From the NCBI GenBank assembly GCA_030145275.1, contig JAQYVV010000006.1, forward strand, positions 8,000-71,999: 64,000 nt of DNA, given 5' to 3'. The notes under the pieces are model-generated. The model was not told the DNA's origin. It made no database searches and worked only from the letters and a program-made list of their open reading frames with translations. Positions 1,550 to 43,727 of the stretch are shown here, piece after piece; position 1 is the stretch's first letter, and each line of letters starts with the position of its first letter. The position numbers were made by a program, and so were the translations under genes. Source of the stretch: Desulfurivibrionaceae bacterium. Its GTDB lineage: Bacteria > Desulfobacterota > Desulfobulbia > Desulfobulbales > VMSU01.

Positions 1550-1700
1550 CGGCAGTTGACGGACTACGTCTGCGCTTATCTAACGGCTAAAAAAATGCTC
1601 CCGTAAATAGCATAAACTTGAACCGTCAAATGTCTGAGTTGGCAAATAAAATAACGTATATATTCGACTTGTCTGAAAAGTTTAAACAACCAGCCAATCC

Positions 1701-1807
1701 GTAAATATTTGGCATCGCTTTTCAGGGAGGTGAGCAGGCTGGCGTAGCGTAGTTGGCTACGTGAGACAGCCTGATCGCCTTCCTGGGAAGTGATGCCGAA
1801 TATTTAC
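1701..1807. repeat. Palindromic intergenic repeat, type A (termini GTAAATATTTGGCA...TGCCGAATATTTAC)
   Basis: The two ~41-nt arms are reverse complements apart from 7 mismatches. The core GATCAGGCTG-type module is shared with other copies in the window. Confidence 0.85.
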
Positions 1808-1840
1808 AAAATAACGACGAAGGGCCAAGGCATAAATATC

Positions 1841-2479
1841 ATGATAAAAATACTTCTCGCAGATGACCATAATCTTGTTCGTGAAGGTTTACGCCGTATC
1901 ATTGAAGAGAGTGAAGGCATTGAAGTTGTCGCAGAGGCTGAAAACGGCAGGGACGCACTTCAACTGATAAAAGAACATAAGCTGGATGTCGCCGTCATAG
2001 ATCTTTCCATGCCGGGGATTGACGGACTTGAGGTGATAAACATTCTCCGCGAGACAAATCCTGAGCTACCGGTAATCGTACTGACCATGCATGAAGAAGA
2101 GCAATACGTGGTTCGTGCCATTGAGGCCGGAGCAATGGGATACCTGACCAAGAGATCCGCCGCTGAACAACTGGTCAGCGCTATAAAAAAAGTACACGGC
2201 GGCTCTCGCTACCTCACTCCTGAAGCGGCAGAACTTCTTGCCTTGAGGCTTGCAACAGGTACAAGGGGGCAATCCCCTCTAGACAGCCTCTCCACAAGAG
2301 AGCTGCAAGTTTTGCGGCGCTTGGCAATGGGCAGAACAAACAGGGAGATTGCAGAATCATACTGCATCAGCATTAAGACAGTTGACACCTATCGCCTTAG
2401 AATCTTGAAAAAACTAAATTTGCGCAACAATGCGGATTTGTCCAGATTCGCTTTACAAAATAAGTTGATAGAAGGGTAA
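1841..2479 (+). CDS. NarL/FixJ-family response regulator (REC + LuxR-type HTH)
   Basis: MIKILLADDH start and the acceptor context VAVIDLSMPGIDG. The C-terminal region LSTRELQVLRRLAMGRTNREIAE...SIKTVDTYR is a LuxR HTH. The upstream 17 codons of the ORF lie in the repeat element, so the start was moved to 1841. Confidence 0.9.
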   Translation: MIKILLADDHNLVREGLRRIIEESEGIEVVAEAENGRDALQLIKEHKLDVAVIDLSMPGIDGLEVINILRETNPELPVIVLTMHEEEQYVVRAIEAGAMGYLTKRSAAEQLVSAIKKVHGGSRYLTPEAAELLALRLATGTRGQSPLDSLSTRELQVLRRLAMGRTNREIAESYCISIKTVDTYRLRILKKLNLRNNADLSRFALQNKLIEG

Positions 2480-3240: not shown

Positions 3241-3275
3241 AAATATAAAAAGGGGGAAAGACACCTCTTTCCCCC
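3241..3275 (-). terminator. Rho-independent terminator downstream of the giant gene
   Basis: On the minus strand, the hairpin GGGGGAAAGA-GGTG-TCTTTCCCCC is followed by TTTTTATATTT. It lies ~120 nt after the stop at 3394. Confidence 0.65.
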
Positions 3276-3393: not shown

Positions 3394-4980
3394 CTAAGGA
3401 ACATACTCGTCGGCACCCATGTCGTAATCGTCAACGTCATCACCTAATCCACCCACATCATAAGGACGTGCATCTCCTTCTATATCGTCAGCCGGAGCAG
3501 AGGTGGCAGAGGCGCTATCGATACAGGGTGAAACGTTGGTGCAACCAGCTGGATTATCGGCCCCGTTACAGATCCGAAAATCCCCTGCAGTGGTGGGGCT
3601 GCCAGACCCAGCCTGCTGAAAATCAACAAACTCAGGGTTGGCGTCAATGTTGCCGGTGCCTGCATAACCACCTTCCACATCGGAATAGGTAACTGTCGGA
3701 GTACCACTAATATTCGGGCCGGTACCACCAGCAGTATTCCCCCAGATAACACTGTTGATAATGGTGCCAATACCATACAGGCCACCACCCCTATTCGCGG
3801 AATAATTGCCGCTGATGGTAGTGTTGTAAACGTTCAGCGTTCCAGCGCCGCAATATATACCACCGCCGTCATTAGCTTCGATAATATTACCGCTGACAAT
3901 ACAGTTGGTCAGGGTAACAGTACCTCCCAAATTCCTGATAGCGCCGCCATATGCCCCCGCCTTGTTTCCTTGGATTAAGCTACTGTTTACTTCGGCGCTT
4001 CCATTCTGGATGTATAAGGCGCCGCCATTCTTAACAGTAGCAGCTATATTGTCGTTGATGGTACTATTAGTAATAACCAAGGACGTGCCAGCATCAGCAC
4101 TGTAGACAGCGCCACCGTGCTGAGTTGAAGTGTTGCTGCTTACACTAACATTCGTCAACGCTGCCACAACCGTGCCTCTCAATCTGATAGCTCCACCATA
4201 AGTCCCACCATTGGAGTCAATGCTTGTGTCACTGATAGTTAACGTAGAGCCAGCATCTGCGTACACGGCACCACCGCTACCGGCAGTGTTACCGTTGATG
4301 CTGCTACCACCGCTAATAGTGGCGGCGGTGTTGTCGTCAAGGAAGATACCGCCGCCACTGTAAGCGGTGTTGCTTACAGTGTTGTTGTCGATGTTACTGT
4401 CGGTAATGGTAACAGTGCTCGAGGCACCGCTCAAATAGATGCCACCGCCATCTCTGGTTGTAGTGTTGCTGCTTACGCTGCTACTGGTAATGGCCAGTTT
4501 TGAGTTGTCGCAACGAATACCAGCACCATATTGCGCAGTATTGCCTATTACGTTTATATTAAGCAAGGTGGTGGCAGTAGTGGTCGACGCATTTAACAGG
4601 TAAATGCCACCACCAGATCCAGTGGGCTGGTTGCCCTGGATGATACAGTTCTTGATAAGTGGTGCAGAGAGGCTGTCAACCAAGATACCACGGGTGTTAC
4701 TGTTAGTGATGACAGACCCCTGATTATCAATAGTGAATCCATCCAGTACTGCACTATGTGCACCACTGCTGATATCAACCACCTGGCCATTAGTTCCGTC
4801 GCCTTGAATGGTTGTGGTTGCAGCACCATAGACTGACTGAACGGTGACACTTTTAGTCGTTGGGAAAACTATCCTTTCACTATAAGTGCCGTTGCTGACC
4901 AAGACACATTGACCATCGGCGGCTGCGTTGATACCGGCCTGAATGGTGGCTGCCTCACTGGGCACCTCGACGGCGTCAAC
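3394..4980 (-). other. Parallel beta-helix region 2 of the giant protein
   Basis: The same GGG(I/A)Y / GGA(V/I)Y periodicity as region 1. The C-terminus is DIEGDARPYDVGGLGDDVDDYDMGADEYVP. Coordinates are approximate. Confidence 0.7.
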
Positions 4981-7900
4981 CACGGTTAAGGTTTGCTCTA
5001 CAATGGCATTTCCGTTAGCATCAGCAGTACCGTCATTGGCGTAGAACAGGTATGCAACACCACCATCGGCCACATAAGGAACAAGGGTAGAAATAGTGTA
5101 GAGTTTGCCATCGGTGTAGTCACTATCACCACCATCCACAACGGTCAGGTCTATCTTTTCACCGCCGTCAAGGTAATCGCCGTCATCATTTTTGTCCACC
5201 CACAGCTGAATAGTCACAGGAGCAGTATTGAGTAATTGGGTATACTGGACCCGGAAAGTGTAAAGCCCGCCACAGGGCCCAGATTCTTCTTCAACACCAT
5301 CGATGGTATAACCGCTCTCTCCGGTCCAATCCAGATCTGGCGGAGGACTGGCTGCAAAAATTCCTACGGTGGAGTCAGAGGTTGGGTCACCGGTGGCCGC
5401 ATCTGTACCATCTCCAGCCCTAAAGCTGTAGTTAAGATTGTTGTCACCCGCAGAGTTAAGATTGATGGCAACCTTATAGAGTTTGCCGTCAGTGTAGTCG
5501 CTGTCGCCACCATCCACTGCGCTTAGGTCTACCTTTTCACCGACGTCAAGGTAGTCGCTGTCATCATTTTTATCCAGCCAGAGCTGGATGGAAGCAGGTG
5601 CCTCATTGTCTGCGTCGGTATACTTGATGCGGAAGTCAAAGAGGCTGCCATCCTCGTCATTATTAGGATCAACACCGTCTGAGACATAATTCAGCAATCC
5701 AGTCCAATCCAAGGTCGGAACATGGTTGGCAATGGTCACACTACTGGTTGTGGTTGTTACCGGATCACCGATGGCCGCGACGCCGTTGGCGGCGTAGAAG
5801 CGGTAGTTAAGGGTATTGTCTCCTGCCTTGAAAAAATTCACAGTCCTGGTGTAGATTTTACCATCAGTACAGTCGGTATCAGCACTACTAATCTCGGTCA
5901 TGGTGAGGGTTTCACCACTATCAAGATAATCACCGTCGTCGTTTCTATCCAGCCACACCTGAATGGAGGTGGGCGGCGTGTTATGGGCATCAGTATAGGA
6001 AACCTGGAAGACGAAATCACTGCTGATAAAGCCACTGTCCGGATGGGCTCCGTCCGTTACATAATCACCACTACCAAGCCATGCCAGTTGCGGCACACTG
6101 CTGAGAACAACGGTGTTGTCGGTAACGGGTTCGCCTGTGGCGAGATCATAAGTGTCGGCAGCATAAAAACGATAGTTGAGCACATCGTCACCAGCGTAAA
6201 CTAGGTTTAAAGACTTGCTGTAGAGTTTACCGTCGGTATAGGTGATGTCCCCGCCATCAACTGCACTCATGGTATACTTTTCACCAGCTTCATAGCTGCC
6301 ATTGTCGTTTTCATCCACCCAGAGCTGGATGGCAACAGGTGCATCGTTATCAGCATCAACGTATGTAGTCCGGAATTCGAAACTGGCTCCACTCACCCCC
6401 TGATCGGGGTCAACGCCATCAGCAGCATAATTTGTCTCGCCAGTCCACTCAAGACTCGGGATATTGTTAAACACAGTCCCGACCTCATAGGCCCCCATGT
6501 CAATACCAGCGCCATTGGGACGGATGTTGTTTTCAATATCCGAGGCAGGTGCACCGGTGGCGGTCCCTGCATCCACGGCTGCCGAGTGATTTGGCAGATG
6601 GTAATCGCCCTCGGAAGTGGGGGCATACGAAAAGTCAAGGGGATCAACAAAATATGGGTCAATATTAATATTATTGTTACCGCTGTAACCGTCCTCACCA
6701 ATGTCGGAATAACTGGCAGTGACAGTACCGTTTATCTGCGAACTGCTACCGTTGCCCCAAATGATGGAGTTTGTTAGCGTTACCGTGGCTGTAGCGTCAA
6801 AGGCGACCTCCACTGCACTGCCAGAGTTGCTAGTGTTACCGCTGATGGTGCAATTCAAAATATCAGCAGCCAGAACAACATCCTCCCCGCTGAAATGAAA
6901 CCCACCACCGTTATAATCTCCCTTGTTGCCGCTTACCACACTGTTAACGAATGATGCAGTTGTGTTGCCGTCAACATAGGCACCGCCGCCATACTGGGAA
7001 CTATTTCCGGTAAAGAAAGATCTCTCAATAGTCGCGGTGCCGCCAGAGAGCAGTAGACCGCCACCTTTGGCAAAAAAAGCGCTAGAATTATCACGAATAG
7101 AGGAATCGATAAGGGTGAAGGTATTACCTGCCCCATTGACAACAGCTACGCCGCCGCCGCCTGTTCTACCATCGTTATCATTGAAGGTGGAACCGCTTAT
7201 GGTCATCGAGTCCAGAGCGACCAAACGTATAGCCCCCCCTGCAGAAGTACTTGAAGTATTACTGCTAAACGTGCTGTCGGAGATGCTGCCGGTAAGAAGA
7301 GTGGCCCCAGCACTTTCTAAATACACGCCGCCGCCATTCTGGGCACTGTTGCCACTGATGGTGCTATCGTCGATACTCACGATTACAGTACCGCCTGTGG
7401 CATTGCAATAGATTCCGCCGCCATAGGCGAAGTTGGTTCCGGAGTTGCCGCTGATGGTAGAACTGGAAACGGCCAGCGATGCATCAGCACTGGTTGCCAT
7501 AAAGATTCCGCCGCCACGATTGCCGCTGTGGTTATTACTGATGGTGGAGCCGGAAATATCCGCCGAACTGCCGCTGTCCAGATAGATGCCGGCACCATGT
7601 GATCCAGCGGTGTTACTGCTGATAGTCGTGGCACTAATAGTCACAGTGGACGAAGCCCCAATGACGTAGATACCACCGCCGCCACTATTGCCGATGTTAT
7701 TAGTTATAATAGAATTGATAATGGCAGGCGAAGAATCACTGATGTAGAGACCGCCCCCTTTGCCAAAATTTATTTGATTGCCGTTCTGCACAGTTACGCC
7801 GTTAAGTACTGTATCAGCGCCATTTTTAATCGTAACCGTTGAACCGGAGGCATTACCATCAATAATGCTGGAAGCAGCGCCGTTTTCAGAGATAATGGTC

Positions 7901-10900
7901 AGGTCCTTGTTGTCAATGGTGATTTTCTCCGTGCAGGTTCCGTCTGCAAGCAGGAGGGTATCACCATTCGCAGCATTGTTGATCGCTGTCTGCAGTGAGG
8001 TGTAGTCATAGTCTCCGGTGCCGTCACAAGACACCTTGATAGTATTAACGAAAAGGGTAACGATGTTGTCATTAGCCGCTATACCGCCGGCATCCACGCT
8101 GCCGTCAGAAGCAAAGAAACGATAGTTGATCACGCCGTCCCCCGCAATAAGCAAGGTTGTTGTCGCAACATACATTTTACCATCAGAGTAATCGGTATCC
8201 GAAGCATCAACGACGGTCAGGTCGATCTTTTCATCGCTGTCGTCGTAATCATCATCATCATTCCTGTCCACCCAAAGCTGTATTGCAGTAGGTGTGGTAT
8301 TGTCGGCGTCACTGTATTGCACCTGGAAGCTGAAACTGCTGTTATCAAGCCCGCTATCCGGATCGACACCGTCGGTGACATAATTGCTTACCCCGGTCCA
8401 GGTTAGTAGCGGCGCTGTGTTGCTGCTAGTCACGTTTACTGATCTGTCAGTGGTGGGCGTGCCTGTGGCTTCAAGCGCATCGCGTAAGGCGTAGAAGCGG
8501 TAGTTAAGCGAACCATCACCCGCATAGGCGAGGGCCAGCGTCTTGGAATATAATTTGCTGTCTGTTAAGGTGGTGTCGCCACTATCAACCTCGGTCATCT
8601 CATACTTTTCACCAGGCTCATAACTGCCGCTGTCATCAACATCCACCCATACCTGAATATTGCTTGGCAAGAGATTGTCGGCATGGCTGTAATCTATCTG
8701 GAAAACAAAAGAAGATCCGGAGGCTCCACTGTTGGGACTGACACCATCGGCGCTGTACCCTGCCTCACCACTCCAAGCCAGAACCGGAACATCCGGGTTC
8801 AGGGTAATCGTGGCGCCAGTAACCGGACTGCCGGTCGCTGTGCCATTTCTGTCCATGGCATGGAAGCGATATGAGAGAGTGCCGTCTCCGACACTGTTGA
8901 GCGCCATGATCCTGGTATACAACTTGCCATCTGATGAGTCGTGATCGCTGTCGTCAACATCAAACATGGTGAATTTTTCGTTCTCTGCATAACTGCCGCT
9001 GTCATCAACATCCACCCATACCTGGATAACAGTGGGGCGGTCACGATTGGCGTCAGTATATTCTACCCGGAAGGCAAAATAATTGCCGGACTGAGCGCTA
9101 TCAGGGCTGACACCATCGGTGGTGTAGCCTGCTTCGCCGGTCCAGGCCAGGGTCGGCGCTTCCTGGGCTATAGGATTGGAGCTTCGGGGATAGATATAGC
9201 CCCCACCAGTCGCATTACCATGGCAGTCTGAACACAGATTATCGGAAGTGTTGGAATCCCAGAATGTGCCGGTGCTGTCTGGCAAGTAAATTGGTTGGCT
9301 GGGCTCGACTACATCCCTGGTAGTTACATAACTGACTGAGGGAGATCCTACTACCATATCGGTGTAGAAAATTTTCATCCCCGGCTCCTTGCCAGTCAGC
9401 TTGCCGTCCCTGATCATGGAGAGTTGAGTTGATCCATGGACGTTGTGGCAGTTGATACAGGTGATAGTATTTTTCCCTGTGGTGCTGCGCCAATCGGATC
9501 TAAACCTGTATTGCATGCCAAGATGGTACTCGTGAGCATTGACAGGAGCAGGGTCAGGGCCTGTTGGATTCCAGTCTAAATCGTCCCGGAAGGTGGTACC
9601 GTATTCCGTAGATTTAGTCAGGTATTTATCCGGCAGATGGCAACCGTTACTGGAAAAACAGAGCCGATGCTCGTCTTGATTGGGCGTAACTCCAGTAAGT
9701 GGTACCACCATGGGATTAAGATCGTCCACCAGATTAAGACGATACCCCAGTCGGTACTCGTCCGAGTCGCAGTCACGATCATTTTGATCAATATCATTAG
9801 CAGGATCAGCATCAGTACAATCAAAGGACCGTGCCACGCCGTCGATATGTGCGGCGGAGTAGTCATGGCAATCATCGCACCCCTTGCCGGCACCCTGGAC
9901 CACGCCTCCGCTGGCGGGATAGGTGTCAGCACTATCCAGACCATGACCGGTCTTGTAATAGCCCCAGCCGGTACCGACGCCGTAGGTATAGTCACCGTCT
10001 TCGTCGCCGATGACATTGGGGGCACTGATAGCGCTGGCTACTGACGGAGCCTCATCATGACAGGTGGCACACCATTTATCTTTACCGGCCTGCAGCGTAA
10101 CACTGTCTGACTCGTAAATAGCGGTGTCCCAGTTATTTTTTGCGCCCACCACAGCGTCACTGACGCCGTCGTATGTACCGCCTTGACTATGGCAGGTATC
10201 GCAGACCGTGGTCAACAGCAGACTGGAAGCCCCATCCGCAAAGTCTGGGAAATTAGCTGTATCATGGCAGGTATCACAACCCACATTGGGGCCTTTTAAG
10301 TCATCACTGTCATTTTCTGTATGGGTTGAATGGCTCCAAAATGAGCCTGCGCCACCAGTGGCACCACCGTAGCCTGGATCATGGCCATGGCAGGGCTCAC
10401 AGCCCGGCCCCTGGGAATCAATACCATGGGCAAAGCCCTGAGTATGGGCATGGCAGCTAATGCAGTCGATGCTGGTCACGGCCCCGGCATTGGTATGATT
10501 CTGGTCCGGACCGCTCCCGTCATTACGAAAATGGTCGGTCATGGTATGGCAAACTTCACAGATGCCGTCGTAGATTGCATCGCCATCAGCAAAAGAATTG
10601 TCCCCCTGCCTGTCGGAGAACTTGACCGTGGCATCATCTGTGCCATCATCCGGCGTGTTATTCCAGTCAACCAATCGCTTGATGTATTGACCGTAGATGA
10701 CACCAAAGTTAGTGGGAGGACTGATATAGGTGTACATAGAGCGAACATCCCCAGCCACGGTCATGGTCGTGGCGTCGATAGCTGTAACCGCAAAGGCGTT
10801 ACCCGTTTTTCTCAGGTTGGGTAAGAGGATGGGCCGCCTGGCCGCTGTAGTCTTTTCGGTTATGGAATCTATGTCCCAGCCACTCTTAAAAGCCCCGCCG

Positions 10901-11331
10901 GAGTACGTCAGCACACTAATATCATTGCCAGACTCATAGGCGTAGGCATCTATCTGCCCAGAGAACAGTATGAGTTCAGCGCCTTCAGTGCGAATCCGGG
11001 CCTTCTGGTATTGATAGTGCGGATCATGGCAGTCTATACACTGCTTGCTCCAAGTGCCATACTTGGCGCTGGTATTCTCGCTGGTGTGACCGAGAACTAT
11101 GGGCGCACTGGTGTTACTATATGGGCTGGTGGCAGCATTGTGACAATTTACCGTGCAGAAGTTATTGATATTACTGCCGGTAAGTAGAGGTGAATCAGCC
11201 AGCGAAGTATCATGACAACTGGAGCAGGAGATATTATGACCTGCGTCATGGGGCGCATCAAGCCCGGCAAAAACCGGGGCCATTAAAAAAAGAGAGACCC
11301 ACGTGAAGCAAATAACTTTTAAGAGAAGCAT
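3394..11331 (-). CDS. Giant secreted multihaem cytochrome c fused to seven Ig-like modules and two parallel beta-helix regions (2645 aa)
   Basis: Signal peptide MLLLKVICFTWVSLFLMAPVFA. The first ~720 aa hold 11 CXXCH motifs plus CTVNCH and CFSSNGCH. There are seven ~120-aa modules. Two Gly/Ser/Thr/Asn-rich regions are full of GGG(I/L/V)Y and GGA(I/V) turns, as in PMP-type right-handed beta-helices. These regions end in IDMGAYE and YDMGADEY. Confidence 0.9.
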   Translation of the reverse strand: MLLLKVICFTWVSLFLMAPVFAGLDAPHDAGHNISCSSCHDTSLADSPLLTGSNINNFCTVNCHNAATSPYSNTSAPIVLGHTSENTSAKYGTWSKQCIDCHDPHYQYQKARIRTEGAELILFSGQIDAYAYESGNDISVLTYSGGAFKSGWDIDSITEKTTAARRPILLPNLRKTGNAFAVTAIDATTMTVAGDVRSMYTYISPPTNFGVIYGQYIKRLVDWNNTPDDGTDDATVKFSDRQGDNSFADGDAIYDGICEVCHTMTDHFRNDGSGPDQNHTNAGAVTSIDCISCHAHTQGFAHGIDSQGPGCEPCHGHDPGYGGATGGAGSFWSHSTHTENDSDDLKGPNVGCDTCHDTANFPDFADGASSLLLTTVCDTCHSQGGTYDGVSDAVVGAKNNWDTAIYESDSVTLQAGKDKWCATCHDEAPSVASAISAPNVIGDEDGDYTYGVGTGWGYYKTGHGLDSADTYPASGGVVQGAGKGCDDCHDYSAAHIDGVARSFDCTDADPANDIDQNDRDCDSDEYRLGYRLNLVDDLNPMVVPLTGVTPNQDEHRLCFSSNGCHLPDKYLTKSTEYGTTFRDDLDWNPTGPDPAPVNAHEYHLGMQYRFRSDWRSTTGKNTITCINCHNVHGSTQLSMIRDGKLTGKEPGMKIFYTDMVVGSPSVSYVTTRDVVEPSQPIYLPDSTGTFWDSNTSDNLCSDCHGNATGGGYIYPRSSNPIAQEAPTLAWTGEAGYTTDGVSPDSAQSGNYFAFRVEYTDANRDRPTVIQVWVDVDDSGSYAENEKFTMFDVDDSDHDSSDGKLYTRIMALNSVGDGTLSYRFHAMDRNGTATGSPVTGATITLNPDVPVLAWSGEAGYSADGVSPNSGASGSSFVFQIDYSHADNLLPSNIQVWVDVDDSGSYEPGEKYEMTEVDSGDTTLTDSKLYSKTLALAYAGDGSLNYRFYALRDALEATGTPTTDRSVNVTSSNTAPLLTWTGVSNYVTDGVDPDSGLDNSSFSFQVQYSDADNTTPTAIQLWVDRNDDDDYDDSDEKIDLTVVDASDTDYSDGKMYVATTTLLIAGDGVINYRFFASDGSVDAGGIAANDNIVTLFVNTIKVSCDGTGDYDYTSLQTAINNAANGDTLLLADGTCTEKITIDNKDLTIISENGAASSIIDGNASGSTVTIKNGADTVLNGVTVQNGNQINFGKGGGLYISDSSPAIINSIITNNIGNSGGGGIYVIGASSTVTISATTISSNTAGSHGAGIYLDSGSSADISGSTISNNHSGNRGGGIFMATSADASLAVSSSTISGNSGTNFAYGGGIYCNATGGTVIVSIDDSTISGNSAQNGGGVYLESAGATLLTGSISDSTFSSNTSSTSAGGAIRLVALDSMTISGSTFNDNDGRTGGGGVAVVNGAGNTFTLIDSSIRDNSSAFFAKGGGLLLSGGTATIERSFFTGNSSQYGGGAYVDGNTTASFVNSVVSGNKGDYNGGGFHFSGEDVVLAADILNCTISGNTSNSGSAVEVAFDATATVTLTNSIIWGNGSSSQINGTVTASYSDIGEDGYSGNNNINIDPYFVDPLDFSYAPTSEGDYHLPNHSAAVDAGTATGAPASDIENNIRPNGAGIDMGAYEVGTVFNNIPSLEWTGETNYAADGVDPDQGVSGASFEFRTTYVDADNDAPVAIQLWVDENDNGSYEAGEKYTMSAVDGGDITYTDGKLYSKSLNLVYAGDDVLNYRFYAADTYDLATGEPVTDNTVVLSSVPQLAWLGSGDYVTDGAHPDSGFISSDFVFQVSYTDAHNTPPTSIQVWLDRNDDGDYLDSGETLTMTEISSADTDCTDGKIYTRTVNFFKAGDNTLNYRFYAANGVAAIGDPVTTTTSSVTIANHVPTLDWTGLLNYVSDGVDPNNDEDGSLFDFRIKYTDADNEAPASIQLWLDKNDDSDYLDVGEKVDLSAVDGGDSDYTDGKLYKVAINLNSAGDNNLNYSFRAGDGTDAATGDPTSDSTVGIFAASPPPDLDWTGESGYTIDGVEEESGPCGGLYTFRVQYTQLLNTAPVTIQLWVDKNDDGDYLDGGEKIDLTVVDGGDSDYTDGKLYTISTLVPYVADGGVAYLFYANDGTADANGNAIVEQTLTVVDAVEVPSEAATIQAGINAAADGQCVLVSNGTYSERIVFPTTKSVTVQSVYGAATTTIQGDGTNGQVVDISSGAHSAVLDGFTIDNQGSVITNSNTRGILVDSLSAPLIKNCIIQGNQPTGSGGGIYLLNASTTTATTLLNINVIGNTAQYGAGIRCDNSKLAITSSSVSSNTTTRDGGGIYLSGASSTVTITDSNIDNNTVSNTAYSGGGIFLDDNTAATISGGSSINGNTAGSGGAVYADAGSTLTISDTSIDSNGGTYGGAIRLRGTVVAALTNVSVSSNTSTQHGGAVYSADAGTSLVITNSTINDNIAATVKNGGALYIQNGSAEVNSSLIQGNKAGAYGGAIRNLGGTVTLTNCIVSGNIIEANDGGGIYCGAGTLNVYNTTISGNYSANRGGGLYGIGTIINSVIWGNTAGGTGPNISGTPTVTYSDVEGGYAGTGNIDANPEFVDFQQAGSGSPTTAGDFRICNGADNPAGCTNVSPCIDSASATSAPADDIEGDARPYDVGGLGDDVDDYDMGADEYVP
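4990..6458 (-). repeat. Four tandem ~120-aa modules (in-gene repeat set 2)
   Basis: The modules start LEWTGETNYAADG, LAWLGSGDYVTDG, LDWTGLLNYVSDG and LDWTGESGYTIDG, with the same internal signature as set 1. Coordinates are approximate. Confidence 0.8.
6480..8050 (-). other. Parallel beta-helix region 1 of the giant protein
   Basis: ~20-residue periodic turns of the form ..S.I..N.A...GGGIY.. It ends with the NIRPNGAGIDMGAYEVG motif. Coordinates are approximate. Confidence 0.7.
8060..9153 (-). repeat. Three tandem ~120-aa modules (in-gene repeat set 1)
   Basis: The modules start LAWTGEAGYTTDG, LAWSGEAGYSADG and LTWTGVSNYVTDG. Each contains Y(T/S)DADN..P..IQ(V/L)WVD..D(D/S)G.Y and ends in L.YRF.A. 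Coordinates are approximate. Confidence 0.8.
9154..11331 (-). other. Haem-rich N-terminal region of the giant protein
   Basis: All CXXCH motifs of the protein fall here: CSSCH, CIDCH, CEVCH, CISCH, CEPCH, CDTCH x2, CATCH, CDDCH, CINCH, CSDCH. Confidence 0.85.
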
Positions 11332-11818: not shown

Positions 11819-14188
11819 TCATGGAATAGTGACTTTCAGTGTGTAACAGGTATCACAATCATCTTGGTCCGCCCAACTGTCCCAATAAAGCTCGTGAATA
11901 CTGTAATCAGGGGCATATATTTTCAACCAAATCTCATAAGTCCCGGCACTGTAGGTGTGTTGAACTGATCCGGTAGGCGACGTGAACGAGTCTGATCCTG
12001 AGGGCCAATAGACATAAACCTTACCATACGGATCGCCATTGACCGACACCGTGACAGTGCTGCCGCTAATCGATACATCTGGATACCAGGCAGGCGGCGG
12101 TGGTGGTGGCGCACTTGGCGTGAACGAAATCGTAGTCTTTTCGCCGGTCAAACCATTGGCGCCAGTCACACTGACCACGGCCTGATAGGTTCCTGCCGCA
12201 CCGTATTCATAGGATACGGAGGAAGAGGTCCCAAAATCCTGCTCCGTATAGACGACAGAGCCGGAAGCTGCGAGACCATCATAAAATTCCCAGGTATAGG
12301 TGTACGGCGACACACAGGCACTTGCGGGGAAACAGGATGGGGAGCCGGTGATTATGGAAATGCCGTAATCGCCTTGATCTGTTAAGTCATAGCTGAAACC
12401 TGCAGGAGTTAATGAGGCGCCCCCCCAGTTGAAGGATGCGCCAAAACCATATACACCGTGGCAGGAAATATTGGAGCACCTGCCAGCGCCGCCATTGAAG
12501 GTGTAGTCGAGGGTTGAGTCATAGGGTATGCTGTTCTTCAAAAAGGTAGGAGAAGCCACAACATCATACACACCGTTGATGTGTTTGGTCGCATCGGTAA
12601 TAGTAACACCGTCTGTGGTCGTGGCATAATGGCATATCTCACAGTCAAACCCAATGCTCTCATGTCTTTCGTGCGTATTCGATTTGCTGCCGCCAACAAA
12701 ATTACCATATGCCGGCGGGTAGCCATGACAGTTGTTACAGTTGTTCCCATCCCCCTGCGGATCAGGTGAAGAACCGTCCCACTTGGGAGAGGTGTTTATT
12801 CCCACTTCAGGGGAAACAAATCCTGTTGAAATTGAGGTGCCGTCACTGTGACAATAGGTGTTGGCACAGACAATCCCGCCACCTGTAGTAACTGTCGTAT
12901 TGTTGACCCCCTGGTATGTATAACCGTTGGCAAGGGTCTGGCCGTCATAGGATGTATCCGTCCCGTCGCTCATGCCGCTGACCGCTACCCCGGAAAAACC
13001 GATCTGGATAGCAGCATCGCCCTCCTGGTTACTGGCAGTCATGGTGGTTGACATGCCCCCGTAATGACAGATGTGGCAAGGATATCCCATGCCGCTCGGG
13101 GTGGCATGCAAGGTGTGCTGGCCGCTGCTGGCCGAAGCAGTTGCATCCGGGGGAGGATAGCGAGCCTCCTCCGGTACATTGCCTGACCCCACCAGACCAC
13201 TGGGGCCATTAGGGCTATCCTGGCTGGGAGGCAAGCCGTGACAGTCTGTACAACTGGGCCGAAAGCCATCGGCATGATTATGACAGAACAAGCACTGCTC
13301 CTCACTCTCCAGGTTGACGTTAGCCTCGTCAAGCAGGGCAATATTGGCATGGTTTGGGTCTGGAGCGGCTGCGGCGCCGGCATTACGGAAGTGATCGGTT
13401 TGGGTATGACAAATTTCACAGACATTACTGCCGTCCCCGGCGGTAAAGCCATAGGTGCCGTTCTTATCCATGAACTTCAGGGCTTTTTCGTAGCTGCCGT
13501 CGCCATCAGTATCAACGAACTTCCTGATGTACTGACCATAGATGACGCCAAAGTTAGTGGGCGGGCTAATGTAGGTGTACATGGCCCTGACATCGCCGGC
13601 CACGGTCATGGTAGTAGCGTCGATAGCTGTAACTGCAAAGGCGTTGCCAGTTTTCTTCAGATTGGGCAGGAGGATGGGCCGCCTGGCCGCTGTGGTCTTT
13701 TCGGTTATGGAATCTATGTTCCAGCCGCTCTTAAAAGTCCCGCCGGAATACGTCAGCGCACTGGTGTTGTCATCGGCGTCATAAACATAAGCATCAACCT
13801 GACCGCTGAAGAGGAACAGTTCAACACTCTCGGTGCTGGCCCAATATTTCTGATTTTGATAGTGCGGATCATGGCAGTCCAGGCACTGTTTGGTCCAAGG
13901 GCCAAACTGGGTGCTGGTATAGGCGCTAGTATGCCCGAGGACCATGGGAGCACTGGTGTTGCTGTAAGATTCAACATTGGCGGCATTATGACAATTTACC
14001 GTACAGAAATTGTTGATATTGCTGCCGATAAGCAAAGGGGAATCCGACAGCGAAGTATCATGACAACTGGAACAAGAGATTTTATGGCCTGCGTCGTGGG
14101 GCGCATCAAGGCCGGCAAAGACCAGATCCGCAGAGAAAAGAGATACACAGATGACACAAAAAATTTTTAGAAAAAGAGCATAGCCCAT
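11819..14188 (-). CDS. Secreted multihaem cytochrome c with C-terminal PKD/Ig-like domains (789 aa); N-terminal paralogue of the giant protein
   Basis: It has a signal peptide and 8 CXXCH motifs, plus CTVNCH, CANTYCH and CSNISCH. The CX4CH...CXXCH pattern resembles the Geobacter-type domain. The first ~270 aa are ~80% identical to the giant protein. A PKD-like region is present (YTYTWEFYDG...YQAVVSVTGANGLTGEKTTISF). Confidence 0.9.
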   Translation of the reverse strand: MGYALFLKIFCVICVSLFSADLVFAGLDAPHDAGHKISCSSCHDTSLSDSPLLIGSNINNFCTVNCHNAANVESYSNTSAPMVLGHTSAYTSTQFGPWTKQCLDCHDPHYQNQKYWASTESVELFLFSGQVDAYVYDADDNTSALTYSGGTFKSGWNIDSITEKTTAARRPILLPNLKKTGNAFAVTAIDATTMTVAGDVRAMYTYISPPTNFGVIYGQYIRKFVDTDGDGSYEKALKFMDKNGTYGFTAGDGSNVCEICHTQTDHFRNAGAAAAPDPNHANIALLDEANVNLESEEQCLFCHNHADGFRPSCTDCHGLPPSQDSPNGPSGLVGSGNVPEEARYPPPDATASASSGQHTLHATPSGMGYPCHICHYGGMSTTMTASNQEGDAAIQIGFSGVAVSGMSDGTDTSYDGQTLANGYTYQGVNNTTVTTGGGIVCANTYCHSDGTSISTGFVSPEVGINTSPKWDGSSPDPQGDGNNCNNCHGYPPAYGNFVGGSKSNTHERHESIGFDCEICHYATTTDGVTITDATKHINGVYDVVASPTFLKNSIPYDSTLDYTFNGGAGRCSNISCHGVYGFGASFNWGGASLTPAGFSYDLTDQGDYGISIITGSPSCFPASACVSPYTYTWEFYDGLAASGSVVYTEQDFGTSSSVSYEYGAAGTYQAVVSVTGANGLTGEKTTISFTPSAPPPPPPAWYPDVSISGSTVTVSVNGDPYGKVYVYWPSGSDSFTSPTGSVQHTYSAGTYEIWLKIYAPDYSIHELYWDSWADQDDCDTCYTLKVTIP

Positions 14189-14372: not shown

Positions 14373-16952
14373 CTACTTAACCTTGCGCAGCTTTGCCGGT
14401 CCAGAAAGATCGACAATTACCCCATTAGCAACCCCATCGGCATCGCCCAAACCACCGTCGGTGAGTTCCAGAACAGCTGACAAGCGATCACGACTGATCT
14501 GAGTCAAACCGCTATAATCAAGCCACCCATTAAACGGATCATAATGGACCCAGCTGCTGCCAGATGGAATAGCCCGCCCCTCCTCGGCAAAATAGAAAGA
14601 CACGGATACGGAGGCGCCAGGAGAAGCAACCTCAATTTTGTTAGCCAGCAAGCCAAGTGAGAACTTAATAGATTTACCAGGGGGCTCCAGTAAATTTTCC
14701 GGGGCAACGGCCTTGACCGCCAGTAAACTTGCCACCTCGGATACCACACTTAAGCAAGCTCTATTCCCCCCTTCTGCCGTATCAACACAGAAGAGTTCAT
14801 CCTGCTCGCGATCGGCAATGCCGTCAGCATTTACATCATCAATGCCCATTTCTCCATCTACCGGCTCCTCAAGCCCCTGGAGACCGGTTTGAAAAGTAAA
14901 GACATCAGACCATTCCGACTGACTACCCAGGGTAGACCAGAACTTTGCCCGCCAGTAGTAGGTGGTTTCAGGGTCAAGAAGTAGTTCCGCTAACGGTAGT
15001 TCGGTCAAATTCTCGCCAGAACCATTCACCGCCAGGAGGAGATGGCTAAATTCAGGATCAGGGCTAACCTGCCAACTCGTGAACCAGTGCTCAGCGCAGC
15101 CTGCCGGATCAACATAGACTCCCGCACTCAACTGTGCTGTTACAGAGATATCCTCGGAATAATTTTCAGGAGAGAGCGGCAGTGGCCAATCCGGCCAAGA
15201 GAGACACTCAAAGCTATCTCCCAGGCCAATGATGGCTGGCATACTCCAGCTACTGATATTTCCGGCCTGATCAATGGAACTTACCCTCCAGTACCAAATA
15301 CCGTCAGCAAACAAATTGCCTAAGTCATACCAGCCGTCGGTGATGATCGTACTCGTCGTAAGGCCATTAAAATCTGGATTATCTGCCACTTCCACCCTAA
15401 AGGCAACGGCGTCCGCCGCTGTCCAACTTATGATGCTTGTACCGGGCAGAAACCCAAAATCGACAACGGGAGTGAGGGGCGGTTTGGTATCGAGAATGAC
15501 CTCGGCTGCGATTTCGATAGTGTTACCACCAGCATCCTGCAAGTTCCCCAGAACCGTCTTCACTCCATCACCAGTAGTAAGCAGCCAGGCCAAATCAGCA
15601 CCAAAAGGCTTCCATTCGCCAAATGGTTCTCCAGCATTGGCAAAACGCATGATCTCGGCTTCAGGAGAGATGATGGAGAGCAGCACATCTGCGCCACTGG
15701 TGTAGGTAGCGCCATTATTAATTTGCAGAGAGCCACTGAGCTGATTCTTCACTGCCACCGTGCAGAAGTCCGGTTCTGATAGCAGCCCCAGGGCATTGGT
15801 TACCGTCAGTTGAAAAACAAGCTCCTCACCAAGAGGCGCCACTTCCGGAGCCTCGAAAATCGGCCTAACAGAATCAGGATCATCCAAATTCACTAATGGG
15901 CCACCCACCTGGGTCCAGGTAAAAGAGAGCAGCTCACCTTCCGGATCACTGGAACTGCTGCCATCCAAGCTTACCATGGCATGCTCGGTAACCAGAAGGT
16001 CCTCGCCGGCATGGGCCTCTGGAGGCTTATTGTCCCAGTTCATCTCCCCGGAAGCATCGGCAAGTCCTAACACCCTCACCCCACGCCAGAAGGGAGAACC
16101 GATCAAAAGCCGCAAATCTGCAGTTACTGCAAGAGCCTGGGCAGGAAGTTCTGCTCCGTTTTCCTCGCGAATCGAGCCAAGATACTCTCCACTGCTGCTA
16201 TAGCAGAACACCCCACCTCGGGCAGGATCACTGATATAGACATTGCCCCCGGGGGCGACGCTGATACCACGAGGCCGGATTAACTGCCCTTCGCCCAGGC
16301 CGTAACTAGCGAAACTCCTAAGAAACACCCCTGAAAGTGTACACACCGAAACTCTCACCCCGTGAATCATACCGCCGTCATTCCCCACAATGGGAGGCTG
16401 TTCAAGGATATAGAGTTCATCACCGGCAATAGCAATGGATTCAGGGAGGTTCGGACTATCATCAATGGTAAAAAGCAGGCTGCCGCCTGGTTCATAAACC
16501 TTTATAGCGTGAGCCAACTGATCAACAACGTAGATATTGCCGCTCTGACTATCAACAGCGAGACTCACCGGACGTTTGAACTCACCGGCTCCGCTGCCTA
16601 AATAACCAAGCTCAACTCCAGACGCAGCATCAATAATAGTTACGGAGAGATCCTTAGCTGAACTGACGAAAAGACGGTCTCTGTCACTGGCAACTGCTAA
16701 AGGAGAGGAGACAGGGAACATATTGCGCAAAACACCCTGCAGAGAGTAGCTCGCCACCAGATCACGGTCCGAGTCAACCGCATAGATCACTCCCCTGGCA
16801 ACGGAGAGGTGTTCAACGGTGGAGAGTTTGGAAGTAATGGAGGGAAGCGGTACATATTCAATGTAGGCCATGGCCATAATGGGAAAAGAAAGTAGAACAA
16901 TAAATAACACAAGCGCTAAATAACCTTTTATTTTGACCATAACCATCCCCAT
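14373..16952 (-). CDS. Secreted NHL-repeat beta-propeller protein with PKD-like and two Fn3/Ig-like modules (859 aa)
   Basis: Signal/TM segment LALVLFIVLLSFPIMAMA. NHL-like blades repeat (...IYVVDQLAHAIKVY, GNVYISDPARGGVFCY). A PKD-like segment reads SLDGSSSSDPEGELLSFTWTQVGGP. Two modules carry the ...YYWR(V/A)...S.WS signature. There is a DDVNADGIAD Ca-loop-like motif and a C-terminal DGGLGDADGVANGVIVDLSGP motif. Confidence 0.85.
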   Translation of the reverse strand: MGMVMVKIKGYLALVLFIVLLSFPIMAMAYIEYVPLPSITSKLSTVEHLSVARGVIYAVDSDRDLVASYSLQGVLRNMFPVSSPLAVASDRDRLFVSSAKDLSVTIIDAASGVELGYLGSGAGEFKRPVSLAVDSQSGNIYVVDQLAHAIKVYEPGGSLLFTIDDSPNLPESIAIAGDELYILEQPPIVGNDGGMIHGVRVSVCTLSGVFLRSFASYGLGEGQLIRPRGISVAPGGNVYISDPARGGVFCYSSSGEYLGSIREENGAELPAQALAVTADLRLLIGSPFWRGVRVLGLADASGEMNWDNKPPEAHAGEDLLVTEHAMVSLDGSSSSDPEGELLSFTWTQVGGPLVNLDDPDSVRPIFEAPEVAPLGEELVFQLTVTNALGLLSEPDFCTVAVKNQLSGSLQINNGATYTSGADVLLSIISPEAEIMRFANAGEPFGEWKPFGADLAWLLTTGDGVKTVLGNLQDAGGNTIEIAAEVILDTKPPLTPVVDFGFLPGTSIISWTAADAVAFRVEVADNPDFNGLTTSTIITDGWYDLGNLFADGIWYWRVSSIDQAGNISSWSMPAIIGLGDSFECLSWPDWPLPLSPENYSEDISVTAQLSAGVYVDPAGCAEHWFTSWQVSPDPEFSHLLLAVNGSGENLTELPLAELLLDPETTYYWRAKFWSTLGSQSEWSDVFTFQTGLQGLEEPVDGEMGIDDVNADGIADREQDELFCVDTAEGGNRACLSVVSEVASLLAVKAVAPENLLEPPGKSIKFSLGLLANKIEVASPGASVSVSFYFAEEGRAIPSGSSWVHYDPFNGWLDYSGLTQISRDRLSAVLELTDGGLGDADGVANGVIVDLSGPAKLRKVK

Positions 16953-16958
16953 CCTCCG

Positions 16959-18110
16959 TTAAACACCATCTTTGTTACTATGACAGACAAAACAGCCGTT
17001 GCCAGCACCAGCCCCTGTGGTCCCAGCTGAAATTAAGGTGTAATCCCAACGCAGCATATCAGAAAAGGGGCTGCCATGGGCTCGATGACAGGAGAGACAG
17101 AGTACCGTATCCGTCCCCGGAGTTACAGTCCCAGAAGCTGTGCTTCCGGTAATGCTCACCCGGCCCACCGGAACATCTAGGTCATAGCTGGTATAGGCGG
17201 CATACTCACCACTGTTGGGTAAGAGAATATCGGTGGGGTGCCTAATCCATGGTGAAGAAGGCCCGCCAATATCAGCACTGGCATGAAAAAGACCGTGACA
17301 TTCAGCACAGAGCTGGCTGATGCTCTCGATATCCGCCCAGTCCTGGGTACTACGATCAGCATAGACTATGCCCTTATACTCGTTATGATCTGTTGGACCG
17401 GTGGTCGCCTGCCAGTCCGCATCCTCAGCCCCATGTACCTTATTGAGAAAACGGTAACTGGTAGCCACCGTGGCCCCCTGAGACGCCTCATCCAATGAAC
17501 CGAACTTCAAAACCGAATCGTCACCGTGATGAGTAGCGTGCATGGCCTGGGTCTGGCTGATCTTCTCCCGATCGCCATGACAACCATTAGTACCGGCGCA
17601 CATAACCTGCGGAGCCGTCCCAGAGTAAGCGGGCTGGTACTTTGCAGTAGAGGGATCATAGTCGGCAACATAGCCTGGCGGTGTGTTCTGCAGGTCACTG
17701 TCCTGAGCGACAATGTCATTACCAAATCCGTGGATATTATGACCGTAGCTATCATCAACAAAAACGTGATGGTAGTTCCCTGCGGCCAAATCCGTGCCAA
17801 CATGGGCAATCTGCGGGGCATCGGCTATAATATTATCACCGCCATCCACGGCCTGCGCATGGCAGCCTAGACAGTCAAGACGCAGCATAGAGGAACGGGC
17901 TGAGCTATGACAATCGTTACACTCAGCGGCCCCAGCAACATTAGGGGTGGAATCAATTTTCATGGAAGCACCGTTCTGGCTGTCATGCATGGTGTGGCAG
18001 CTGGAACACTGGCCACTCTGGATTTTAGTCCATCCAATCGCAGGGAGAAAGAAGGATAAAAAGAGGCAAAGCAAAAGGGTGAAGAGAGGCTGCCAGCAGG
18101 CAAACCGCAT
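16959..18110 (-). CDS. Secreted multihaem cytochrome c (6 CXXCH)
   Basis: Motifs CSSCH, CNDCH, CLGCH, CAECH, CLSCH and CFVCH, plus CAGTNGCH. The start was moved to MRFACWQPLFTLLLCLFLSFFLPAIG so that the protein begins with its signal peptide. The ORF itself is open up to 18284. Confidence 0.85.
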   Translation of the reverse strand: MRFACWQPLFTLLLCLFLSFFLPAIGWTKIQSGQCSSCHTMHDSQNGASMKIDSTPNVAGAAECNDCHSSARSSMLRLDCLGCHAQAVDGGDNIIADAPQIAHVGTDLAAGNYHHVFVDDSYGHNIHGFGNDIVAQDSDLQNTPPGYVADYDPSTAKYQPAYSGTAPQVMCAGTNGCHGDREKISQTQAMHATHHGDDSVLKFGSLDEASQGATVATSYRFLNKVHGAEDADWQATTGPTDHNEYKGIVYADRSTQDWADIESISQLCAECHGLFHASADIGGPSSPWIRHPTDILLPNSGEYAAYTSYDLDVPVGRVSITGSTASGTVTPGTDTVLCLSCHRAHGSPFSDMLRWDYTLISAGTTGAGAGNGCFVCHSNKDGV

Positions 18111-18412
18111 GGTCTGCCGACACGCAGCCTTTTGGGATAAACACTCCACAACTAAACGGTCAGGCCTGCCCATCCAGTTGTGATCTCTCAGGTATAACGG
18201 ATACTCTCCCACAATAAACTCCCCTTGTTTATAAATATATCCCCAAAAAGAGTTTTTCCCTCTTTCAGCAGCCACAAAACACATATCACCTAACCTCGGG
18301 AACTCTGTAACTTTGCACCAAGCAACGACAAACTAAACAATCAGCCCAACAAACATTTCACGCTTTACTTAATAACTGTTTAACTTAATCCTTAAAGACT
18401 ACTACAATGTGA

Positions 18413-42523: not shown

Positions 42524-42757
42524 CTCCATGAACACCATAAAAATTTACCATGAGTGGCGAACCTATCAGAACCACAAGATTTCTGCCTATAATTATTACC
42601 TTTTTTCTTGCGCTCATACTTGAGGTGTGGTATCAAAATTCGTATTCAGGATCATATAAATTATCATCCGGGATATTGTCCTTTGGCAGAGTCTAACGTT
42701 GAAAAGTTCATAAGGTTTAAAAAAAATAAATTGAAAAAAATCACATCTAGGAGACAA

Positions 42758-43699: not shown

Positions 43700-43727
43700 T
43701 TCAGTTAAGCAGAGACTTGTGCAACAT

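What the first reader, a model, noticed from the sequence alone, without database searches (positions are those of the whole stretch)
3394..11331. 2645-aa fusion of a multihaem domain, 3+4 Ig-like modules and two PMP-like beta-helices
One uninterrupted ORF encodes the following, in order. First a signal peptide, then ~700 aa with 11 CXXCH motifs. Then three ~120-aa modules and a ~520-aa Gly/Ser/Thr/Asn-rich beta-helix-type region that ends in IDMGAYE. Then four more modules and a second ~530-aa beta-helix-type region that ends in YDMGADEYVP. I know of giant cytochromes fused to S-layer-type domains in ANME archaea. I know PMP-like beta-helices as bacterial adhesin/autotransporter passengers. 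I do not recognise a described protein that combines the two. There is no visible C-terminal sorting signal (no beta-barrel, PEP-CTERM, LPXTG or T9SS-like tail), so how it is anchored is open. The ~120-aa module (W-T-G-E..Y..DGV.PD.G....F.F...Y.DADN..P..IQLWVD.NDDG.Y...EK......D..D.DY.DGKLY......L...GD..L.YRF.A) is Asp-rich and could bind Ca2+.
Basis: partly seen in the sequence, partly recalled or inferred. Interest (0 to 1): 0.8.

Follow-up and report, generated by a model that had tools for sequence, protein, structure and literature searches.

The report
Giant cytochrome with adhesin-like stalk
This is a real 2645-residue secreted bacterial protein that joins a 13-haem electron-carrying head to a long non-conducting stalk of Ig-like and beta-helix modules. 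It belongs to a widespread family that I found described nowhere in the searchable literature and that probably tethers a cytochrome outside the cell.

Summary
ORF 3394..11331 (- strand) is uninterrupted. It encodes, in order:
- a signal peptide;
- a ~700-aa haem domain with 13 haem motifs (11 CXXCH, one CX3CH, one CX5CH), not 11;
- 3 Ig-like modules;
- a right-handed beta-helix;
- 4 more modules;
- a second beta-helix.

It is not an assembly artefact. At least 12 colinear full-length orthologues (44-59% identity) occur in independent MAGs, and the internal DNA repeats are at most 82% identical.

It is not unique. The haem domain defines a family of 883 clusters at 50% identity (E<=1e-30). The commonest family form is haem domain + 3 modules + 1 helix, and the window form doubles the stalk unit.

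The IDMGAYE and DMGADEYVP endings are the NCBIfam 'choice-of-anchor Q' cap of the helix, not a sorting signal. Monoderm homologues add a linker and a C-terminal membrane anchor after this cap.

The gene follows an OmcS-like cytochrome gene and an NHL beta-propeller gene.

Best reading: an extracellular electron-transfer cytochrome held in the matrix, or on a surface, by an adhesin-type, probably Ca2+-stiffened stalk. The closest described analogue is the archaeal ANME MHC-C (cytochrome + pectin-lyase-like domain). I found no paper on the bacterial family. Function is inferred, not shown.

The parts
3394..11331 (-). Whole gene: 2645-aa precursor (mature apoprotein ~272 kDa, pI ~4.05) plus stop codon
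   Evidence: An identical protein, P0001, is on a 137-kb NCBI contig.
11263..11331 (-). Signal peptide, aa 1-23 (MLLLKVICFTWVSLFLMAPVFA|G), Sec/SPase I type, no lipobox
   Evidence: Read from the sequence. The N-terminus aligns with those of orthologues. The cleavage site is inferred.
9160..11262 (-). Multihaem c-type cytochrome domain, aa 24-724: 13 haem-binding motifs and 13 conserved distal His candidates
   Evidence: As a family profile it finds 883 clusters at E<=1e-30. No solved relative by sequence apart from weak MtrA motif matches.
10663..10980 (-). Haem-free beta-rich insert inside the haem domain (about aa 118-223)
   Evidence: It is the only confidently modelled part of the haem-domain AF2 model (block pLDDT mostly 72-92, one block at 64). 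It has no Pfam hit and no significant fold match.
8041..9159 (-). Ig-like modules 1-3 (aa 725-1097), each with an EF-hand-like DxDxDG loop
6463..8040 (-). First right-handed beta-helix (aa 1098-1623), ~17-19 rungs
   Evidence: Pfam Beta_helix E 2.4e-16; rung spacing 25-32 aa.
6481..6603 (-). Choice-of-anchor Q cap of helix 1 (aa 1577-1617, ...GAGIDMGAYE)
   Evidence: NCBIfam NF041518, best stretch 1577-1617.
4975..6462 (-). Ig-like modules 4-7 (aa 1624-2119)
3397..4974 (-). Second right-handed beta-helix (aa 2120-2645) with 11 regular GG[GA][ILV] rungs, ending in the Q cap ...DDYDMGADEYVP at the C-terminus
   Evidence: Pfam Beta_helix E 1.9e-15 and Chlam_PMP 33.3 bits; rung register printed; second NF041518 stretch.
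3252..3275 (-). Terminator-like hairpin (10 bp, 6 GC) plus T-run, ~120 nt after the stop codon
   Evidence: This is a pattern match only.
11819..14188 (-). Upstream paralogue: 789-aa multihaem cytochrome with a PKD domain. Its first ~320 aa are 64% identical to the start of the giant protein.
14373..16952 (-). 859-aa NHL beta-propeller / PKD protein with a C-terminal choice-of-anchor U domain. Homologues lie next to the giant gene in 28 of 78 related loci.
16959..18110 (-). OmcS-like cytochrome (6 CXXCH + 1 CX5CH). The ORF runs to 18284, but the likely start is M59, which is followed by a signal peptide.
   Evidence: phmmer against 6ef8 OmcS gives E 7e-4, with haem motifs colinear; N-terminus read.

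Best explanation
The gene encodes a secreted multihaem c-type cytochrome used in extracellular electron transfer. Its 13-haem head sits at the N-terminal end of a long stalk that carries no redox cofactor.

Proposed steps:
- The precursor is exported by Sec and loaded with haem in the periplasm. This is established biology for CXXCH proteins.
- It then leaves the cell. The route is unknown and the step is inferred.
- The stalk is 7 Ig-like modules, each with a probable Ca2+ loop, and 2 right-handed beta-helices of the pectin-lyase / PMP type. If extended, it would be roughly 45-50 nm long (my estimate, assuming ~4 nm per Ig module and the ~17-19 rungs per helix at ~0.5 nm each).
- The stalk cannot conduct. 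It most likely acts as a tether or adhesin that fixes the haem head in the exopolysaccharide matrix, on the cell's own surface glycans, on a mineral or on a partner cell.
- There the head would exchange electrons with other cytochromes, including the co-encoded OmcS-like protein.

What is shown: the domain anatomy, the family, and the conserved gene neighbours. What is inferred: the location outside the cell, the binding target, and the direction of electron flow.
For: - The 13 haem motifs and 13 conserved extra histidines fit bis-His electron-transfer haems rather than a catalytic site.
- The N-terminus reads as a signal peptide without a lipobox.
- The stalk domains are of adhesin / carbohydrate-binding type. 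The Ig-like fold is closest to an accessory module of a secreted xanthanase. The helices hit Beta_helix, Chlam_PMP and choice-of-anchor Q.
- The architecture is conserved and modular in 229 sampled relatives. 148 have modules and 107 end exactly at the helix cap.
- Monoderm homologues add, after the cap, a Pro/Thr/Ser linker, a hydrophobic helix and a basic tail. That indicates surface display with the C-terminus cell-proximal and the haem head distal.
- The gene follows an OmcS-like cytochrome gene and an NHL propeller gene, a cassette repeated in several relatives.
- NHL propellers co-expressed with outer-membrane cytochromes are reported in Desulfovibrio ferrophilus (PMC5815863).
- The nearest genomes are Desulfurivibrionaceae / Desulfobulbales. 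That group has documented cytochrome-based iron-oxide respiration (PMC12545173).
- The same functional logic was proposed for ANME MHC-C (PMC9012536).
Against: - There are no expression, localisation or binding data for any family member.
- The window protein has no anchor or recognised secretion signal, so extracellular location is an inference.
- The haem domain could not be modelled (pLDDT 48.9) and has no solved relative. Haem packing and ligation are therefore unverified.
- The cassette with OmcS-like and NHL genes is not universal. Some homologues stand alone.
- A haem head ~50 nm from the tether point raises the question of how it is electrically connected.
Confidence: 0.6

Rival explanations
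1. Assembly artefact. The 3+4 module, two-helix arrangement would be a chimeric or mis-collapsed assembly of internal repeats.
For: The protein contains 7 similar modules and 2 similar helices. The source is an uncultured-organism contig.
Against: - Thirteen sequences from different projects align end to end with the same 3+helix+4+helix order at 44-64% identity.
- 20 of 229 sampled relatives have exactly 7 modules.
- DNA copies of the modules are only 62-79% identical apart from one 41-nt pair, and the longest repeats (to the upstream paralogue) are 79-82% identical. There are no long exact repeats to confuse an assembler.
Confidence: 0.02
2. Periplasmic or outer-membrane-associated electron wire. 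The protein stays inside the outer membrane and the helices serve as structural or chaperone (NosD-like) parts rather than as adhesins.
For: - No outer-membrane secretion signal or anchor is visible.
- There are weak NosD matches in helix 1 and in homologues.
Against: - The NosD hit is below threshold (13.7 bits against 23.6) and is generic for beta-helices.
- The extended length of tens of nm (my estimate) seems too long for a periplasm, whose width was not checked here.
- Monoderm homologues have cell-wall-spanning linkers and C-terminal anchors.
- Choice-of-anchor domains are, as I understand NCBIfam's naming, defined by preceding surface-sorting signals (one search shows only the domain match).
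Confidence: 0.12
3. Polysaccharide-active enzyme fused to a redox module. The beta-helices would be lyases or hydrolases of the pectin-lyase fold that remodel EPS or a partner's envelope, and the haems would play a secondary role.
For: - Right-handed beta-helices are the fold of many polysaccharide lyases and phage tailspike depolymerases (background knowledge; noted in PMC9012536).
- The Ig module's nearest relative sits in a glycoside hydrolase.
Against: - No Pfam or NCBIfam lyase, hydrolase or CAZy-type catalytic family was matched. Only the generic Beta_helix, Chlam_PMP and Q-cap models hit.
- The very regular GGxIY...N rungs, without long loops or an obvious cleft, resemble adhesin passengers.
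Confidence: 0.1
4. Pro-protein. The stalk would be a secretion or assembly aid that is cleaved off to release a haem domain that polymerises or docks.
For: - The haem domain also occurs in shorter proteins. 81 of 229 relatives lack modules and caps, although some may be fragments.
- The neighbouring paralogue shares only the first 320 aa.
Against: - No protease gene lies next to the gene in the window.
- The stalk is strongly conserved in sequence and domain grammar across phyla. That argues for a function of its own.
Confidence: 0.08

Closest known systems
ANME MHC-C (archaeal giant multihaem cytochromes with a pectin-lyase-like domain; Chadwick et al. 2022, PMC9012536)
   Same: - It is a giant multihaem cytochrome fused to a right-handed beta-helix (pectin-lyase-type) region.
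- It has no S-layer domain and no transmembrane anchor.
- It is proposed to contact a surface or partner cell while passing electrons.
   Different: - It is archaeal, the beta-helix is N-terminal, and haem motifs run through the rest of the protein.
- The window protein is bacterial, its haems are confined to the N-terminal 700 aa, and two helices alternate with Ig-like modules.
- Sequence homology was not tested because I had no ANME sequences. No archaeal genome appeared in the 80 best of 220 genome hits.
Chlamydial polymorphic membrane proteins and other type Va autotransporter passengers
   Same: Beta-helix rungs carry GGA[ILV]-type turns. The Pfam Chlam_PMP repeat is matched above threshold in helix 2.
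   Different: - There is no C-terminal beta-barrel translocator.
- FxxN motifs are nearly absent (3 in helix 1, 0 in helix 2).
- The N-terminus is a cytochrome.
NCBIfam NF041518 choice-of-anchor Q domain proteins
   Same: The cap at the end of each helix matches the model (46 bits against a cut-off of 25). Database names of homologues use this label.
   Different: As I understand the name, it refers to proteins that continue into one of several sorting signals. This protein, and 107 of 229 relatives, stop at the cap.
Outer-surface cytochrome clusters with NHL beta-propellers (Desulfovibrio ferrophilus DFE_448-451 and DFE_461-465, PMC5815863) and Geobacter OmcS
   Same: The gene neighbourhood is similar: an OmcS-like cytochrome, then an NHL propeller, then large cytochromes.
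   Different: The giant's own haem domain does not match OmcS or any solved cytochrome beyond single haem motifs. Those clusters are not reported to contain beta-helix fusions.
Accessory beta-sandwich module of Paenibacillus nanensis GH9 xanthanase (PDB 6FHJ, residues ~821-911)
   Same: It is the closest relative of the ~123-aa module by sequence profile (E 5.5e-10) and by fold (TM 0.73, rmsd 2.0 A, 26% identity).
   Different: The xanthanase module lacks the DxDxDG loop, which appears as a gap in the alignment. Which of the xanthanase's beta modules this is, and what it does, I could not establish.

Membership tests
Multihaem c-type cytochrome | Several CXXCH (or CXnCH) haem-attachment motifs behind a Sec signal peptide | tested here: met
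   11 CXXCH + CX3CH + CX5CH in aa 36-704; signal peptide aa 1-23.
Multihaem c-type cytochrome | A conserved distal ligand (usually His) for each haem | tested here: met
   13 invariant or nearly invariant non-motif His for 13 motifs. The assignment of each His to a haem was not tested.
NCBIfam NF041518 choice-of-anchor Q | HMM score above the curated cut-off | tested here: met
   46.1 bits against 25, two stretches.
NCBIfam NF041518 choice-of-anchor Q | Followed by a C-terminal sorting signal (PEP-CTERM, LPXTG, T9SS and others; my understanding of the name) | tested here: not met
   The protein ends 3 residues after the cap and no sorting-signal model hit. Monoderm homologues do have a linker plus a C-terminal hydrophobic anchor.
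Right-handed parallel beta-helix (Pfam PF13229) | HMM score above the gathering threshold, with a regular rung repeat | tested here: met
   95.9 bits for the whole protein; 60 and 57 bits for the two regions; rungs of 25-32 aa.
Chlamydial Pmp / type Va autotransporter | Repeated GGA[ILV] and FxxN tetrapeptides | tested here: inconclusive
   GGA[ILV] occurs 6 times (5 in helix 2). FxxN occurs 3 times in helix 1 and not at all in helix 2. Chlam_PMP scores 33.3 bits in helix 2.
Chlamydial Pmp / type Va autotransporter | C-terminal beta-barrel translocator domain | tested here: not met
   Nothing follows the helix cap.
ANME MHC-C | Giant multihaem cytochrome with a pectin-lyase-like domain, no S-layer domain and no TM helix | tested here: met
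   Domain content matches the published description.
ANME MHC-C | Sequence homology, and the same domain order (N-terminal helix, then haems) | tested here: not met
   The order is reversed. Homology could not be tested because no ANME sequences were available. The best 80 genome hits are all bacterial.
OmcS / OmcE / OmcZ nanowire cytochromes | Sequence or fold similarity of the haem domain to a solved filament subunit | tested here: not met
   The profile search of the PDB found only weak MtrA and NrfA motif matches. The neighbour MHC441, not the giant, is OmcS-like.
GEVED domain (Pfam PF20009) | HMM score above the gathering threshold | tested here: not met
   16.2 bits against 24.4 in the window protein. 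29 of 76 family modules give sub-threshold hits, so this may be a distant relative.

The most novel reading that the evidence does not exclude
The family could be a widespread, undescribed kind of 'cytochrome-tipped tether'. A Ca2+-stiffened stalk of tens of nm, anchored by its C-terminal end, would hold a 13-haem head away from the cell. The anchoring would be covalent or in the membrane in monoderms, and by glycan binding in diderms. The head would act as a mobile contact that ferries electrons between OmcS-like filaments or surface conduits and minerals or partner cells. That would be a physically tethered shuttle, rather than a fixed wire or a free diffusing mediator.
Probability: 0.2. Interest if true: 0.75.

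Novelty: new variant of a known kind. Interest (0 to 1): 0.52.

Why it matters
Extracellular electron transfer is understood mainly from a few models: the Mtr complex, porin-cytochrome complexes, and OmcS/E/Z filaments. How cytochromes are held in place outside the cell is poorly known.

This bacterial family has about 900 clusters at 50% identity. It occurs in MAGs labelled Desulfobulbales, Nitrospirota, Geobacterales, Desulfuromonadales, Zixibacteria, Calditrichota, Actinomycetota and others (organism names as given in the records). It follows a strict domain grammar: haem head, then 3-4 Ig modules, then a capped beta-helix, repeated once or more.

The family would give a testable answer to the retention question, because the retention device is built into the cytochrome. 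It also offers a bacterial counterpart to the ANME MHC-C proteins thought to mediate contact in methane-oxidising consortia.

Tried and rejected
- AlphaFold2 of the haem domain (aa 24-725, 35-sequence alignment) gave pLDDT 48.9. The Foldseek search with that model found nothing at E<=0.001, so no statement about haem-domain fold is made.
- The profile search with the Ig module in the 5.8-billion-protein index returned only 4 fragments. Whether the module occurs outside cytochromes remains open.
- Exact look-ups of window proteins found no contig record. The source organism is therefore inferred from relatives only: FtsZ is 67-73% identical to those of MAGs labelled Desulfobulbaceae, Thermodesulfobacteriota or similar, and the nearest giant orthologue is in a Desulfurivibrionaceae MAG.
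- Four literature searches combining multihaem cytochrome with beta-helix, pectin lyase, PMP or Desulfobulbaceae terms found no paper on the bacterial family, and a check of Garber et al. 2024 found nothing. A separate search on 'choice-of-anchor' alone was also unhelpful. Only the ANME MHC-C description turned up.
- Rfam and tRNA scans of the window were empty.
- I considered the terminal DMGADEYVP as a new sorting signal. I rejected this because the same motif ends the internal helix and is followed directly by the next module.

Full report
**Observation**

The - strand ORF 3394..11331 is uninterrupted and encodes 2645 residues. A plausible ribosome-binding site (AGGAAA) lies ~9 nt upstream of the ATG. 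A strong hairpin plus T-run lies ~120 nt after the stop.

The N-terminus reads as a Sec signal peptide without a lipobox.

Residues 36-704 hold 11 CXXCH motifs. Both correspond to ordinary CXXCH sites in most orthologues, and their Cys and His are invariant. That makes 13 haem sites.

Thirteen non-motif histidines are invariant or nearly so (H28, 82, 105, 279, 296, 302, 334, 337, 463, 495, 600, 603, 632). This count is what bis-His electron-transfer haems would need. The pairing of each His with a haem is inferred.

**Modules**

Seven copies of a ~123-aa unit lie at aa 725, 848 and 973 and at aa 1624, 1746, 1871 and 1997. They are 41-50% identical to each other.

AlphaFold2 on a 76-sequence alignment of family modules gave pLDDT 97.8 and an eight-stranded beta-sandwich. 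Foldseek's best hit is an accessory module of the Paenibacillus xanthanase 6FHJ (TM 0.73, rmsd 2.0 A). This agrees with a profile hit to residues 821-911 of that chain at E 5.5e-10. All other matches are generic Ig-like folds.

All seven modules carry a D-x-[DN]-x-[DNS]-G-x-Y...E loop of EF-hand / DxDxDG type. So do 365 of 529 family modules. The loop is absent from the xanthanase module, where the alignment shows a gap. Ca2+ binding is therefore a reasonable but untested inference. Sub-threshold GEVED matches in 29 of 76 modules point to a distant relationship.

**Helices**

Residues 1098-1623 and 2120-2645 hit Pfam Beta_helix at E 2e-16 and 2e-15. The second region also hits the Chlam_PMP repeat above threshold. 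Rungs of 25-32 aa beginning GG[GA][ILV] can be read directly.

The same motif closes the internal helix and is followed at once by module 4. It is therefore a structural cap, not a terminal signal.

**Not an artefact, not unique**

The identical protein is in NCBI on a 137-kb contig. Twelve further proteins from independent assemblies align end to end with the same 3+helix+4+helix order at 44-64% identity.

DNA copies of the modules are 62-79% identical apart from one short 41-nt pair. The longest DNA repeats, which match the upstream paralogue, are 79-82% identical.

A census of 120 hits shows a domain grammar: haem domain (8-26 motifs), then usually 3 modules, then one capped helix at the extreme C-terminus (~1500 aa). 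Longer forms repeat the stalk unit. Of 229 sampled relatives:
- 148 have modules;
- 20 have exactly seven modules;
- 107 end at the cap.

A profile of the haem domain finds 883 clusters at 50% identity with E<=1e-30, and 1649 with E<=1e-10, among 1.84 billion representatives. Among GTDB species genomes, 220 stretches encode relatives. They come mostly from MAGs labelled Desulfobulbales/Desulfurivibrionaceae, Nitrospirota, Geobacterales, Desulfuromonadales, Zixibacteria, Calditrichota, Chlorobiota, Bacteroidota and Actinomycetota.

The window itself comes from an uncultured Desulfobulbales-type bacterium. The nearest giant orthologue (59%) is in a Desulfurivibrionaceae MAG. FtsZ is 67-73% identical to those of MAGs labelled Desulfobulbaceae, Thermodesulfobacteriota or similar.

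**Context**

Directly upstream on the same strand lie three genes.
- An OmcS-like cytochrome. phmmer against 6ef8 gives E 7e-4, with haem motifs colinear, including CHTMH.S and CLSCHRAH.S.F..M.R. Its likely start is M59.
- An NHL beta-propeller/PKD protein with a choice-of-anchor U end.
- A 789-aa cytochrome-PKD paralogue. Its first 320 aa are 64% identical to those of the giant.

The order OmcS-like, then NHL, then giant recurs in the closest relative, where it occurs twice on one contig, and in several other loci. NHL homologues lie in 28 of 78 loci. Some homologues stand alone.

A HisKA_3 kinase and a LuxR-type regulator flank the gene here. The same pair sits directly upstream of homologues in two Nitrospirae loci.

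NHL propellers co-expressed with outer-membrane cytochromes were reported for Desulfovibrio ferrophilus (PMC5815863). OmcS-like cytochromes are implicated in iron-oxide respiration of Desulfurivibrio (PMC12545173).

**Topology clue**

Homologues in MAGs labelled Actinomycetota and 'Eubacteriales', which I take to be monoderms, continue after the cap. They add ~100 residues rich in Pro/Thr/Ser, a hydrophobic helix and a basic tail. Two family proteins in the sampled set also end in a hydrophobic tail. This fits the 'choice of anchor' logic. It implies that in those organisms the C-terminus is at the cell and the haem head is distal.

The window protein has no such tail, so any attachment must be non-covalent.

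**Mechanism**

The stalk carries no cofactor sites, so it cannot conduct. Its likely role is tethering or adhesion, with the haem head exchanging electrons with nearby cytochromes, minerals or partners.

[quoted passage not shown] In MHC-C, however, the domain order is reversed. Homology to the bacterial family is untested.

I put 0.6 on this reading. The rivals are a periplasmic wire, a polysaccharide-active enzyme, a cleaved pro-protein and an assembly artefact. All are less supported, for the reasons given in their entries.

**Limits**

The haem domain has no solved relative by sequence and could not be modelled. No experimental data exist for any family member in the searchable literature.

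**Verdict**

It is not singular: it is a member of a large, conserved bacterial family that carries only automatic database names, with a described archaeal analogue. I rate it a new variant of a known kind, of moderate interest.

Noticed in passing
window 13230-14188 versus 10370-11331 (- strand): The 789-aa cytochrome upstream shares its signal peptide and first ~320 aa (64% protein identity, 79-82% DNA identity) with the giant, then diverges into a different haem region and a PKD domain. This looks like a local partial duplication or gene conversion of the N-terminal part.
   Followed up: partly
window 16959-18284 (-): An OmcS-like cytochrome with haem motifs colinear to Geobacter OmcS (6ef8), plus one extra CXXCH and a CX5CH. 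The listed ORF start is probably 58 codons too early: M59 is followed by a signal peptide.
   Followed up: partly
window 5-2479 (+); L009 8361-9687; L080 2601-4701: A HisKA_3 histidine kinase and a LuxR/GerE response regulator lie next to the giant gene here (convergent). They lie directly upstream of homologous giant cytochrome genes in two Nitrospirae MAG loci. This is a candidate dedicated regulator.
   Followed up: partly
L044, L045, L048, L049 (MAGs labelled Actinomycetota or 'Eubacteriales'): Homologues end with a Pro/Thr/Ser-rich linker and a tail of the form P-[LA]-A-A-G-M-A-S, then a hydrophobic helix, then R/K. This tripartite shape is typical of sorting signals, but it has no LPXTG. 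It may be an undescribed anchor.
   Followed up: no
window 14373-16952 (-): The NHL beta-propeller/PKD protein ends in a choice-of-anchor U domain (NF041766, 64.6 bits) and, like the giant, has no sorting signal after it.
   Followed up: no
window 10663-10980 (-), aa ~118-223 of the giant: A haem-free beta-rich insert between haem sites 3 and 4 is the only confidently modelled part of the haem domain. It has no Pfam match and no significant fold match.
   Followed up: partly
window 42608-45024 (+): Two adjacent c7/c3-type multihaem cytochrome genes (363 and 385 aa) lie next to a PAS histidine kinase.
   Followed up: no
window 22111-23418 (-) and 19547-20320 (-): Two rhodanese-domain proteins and a CxxCxxCC zinc/iron-chelating-domain protein lie just upstream of the cytochrome cluster. 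A 62%-identical copy of the CxxCxxCC protein lies ~7 kb upstream of a homologue of the giant in L027.
   Followed up: no
window 27881-29377 (+): A 498-aa ORF after a sigma-54 activator gene has no Pfam match at E<=1e-5.
   Followed up: no
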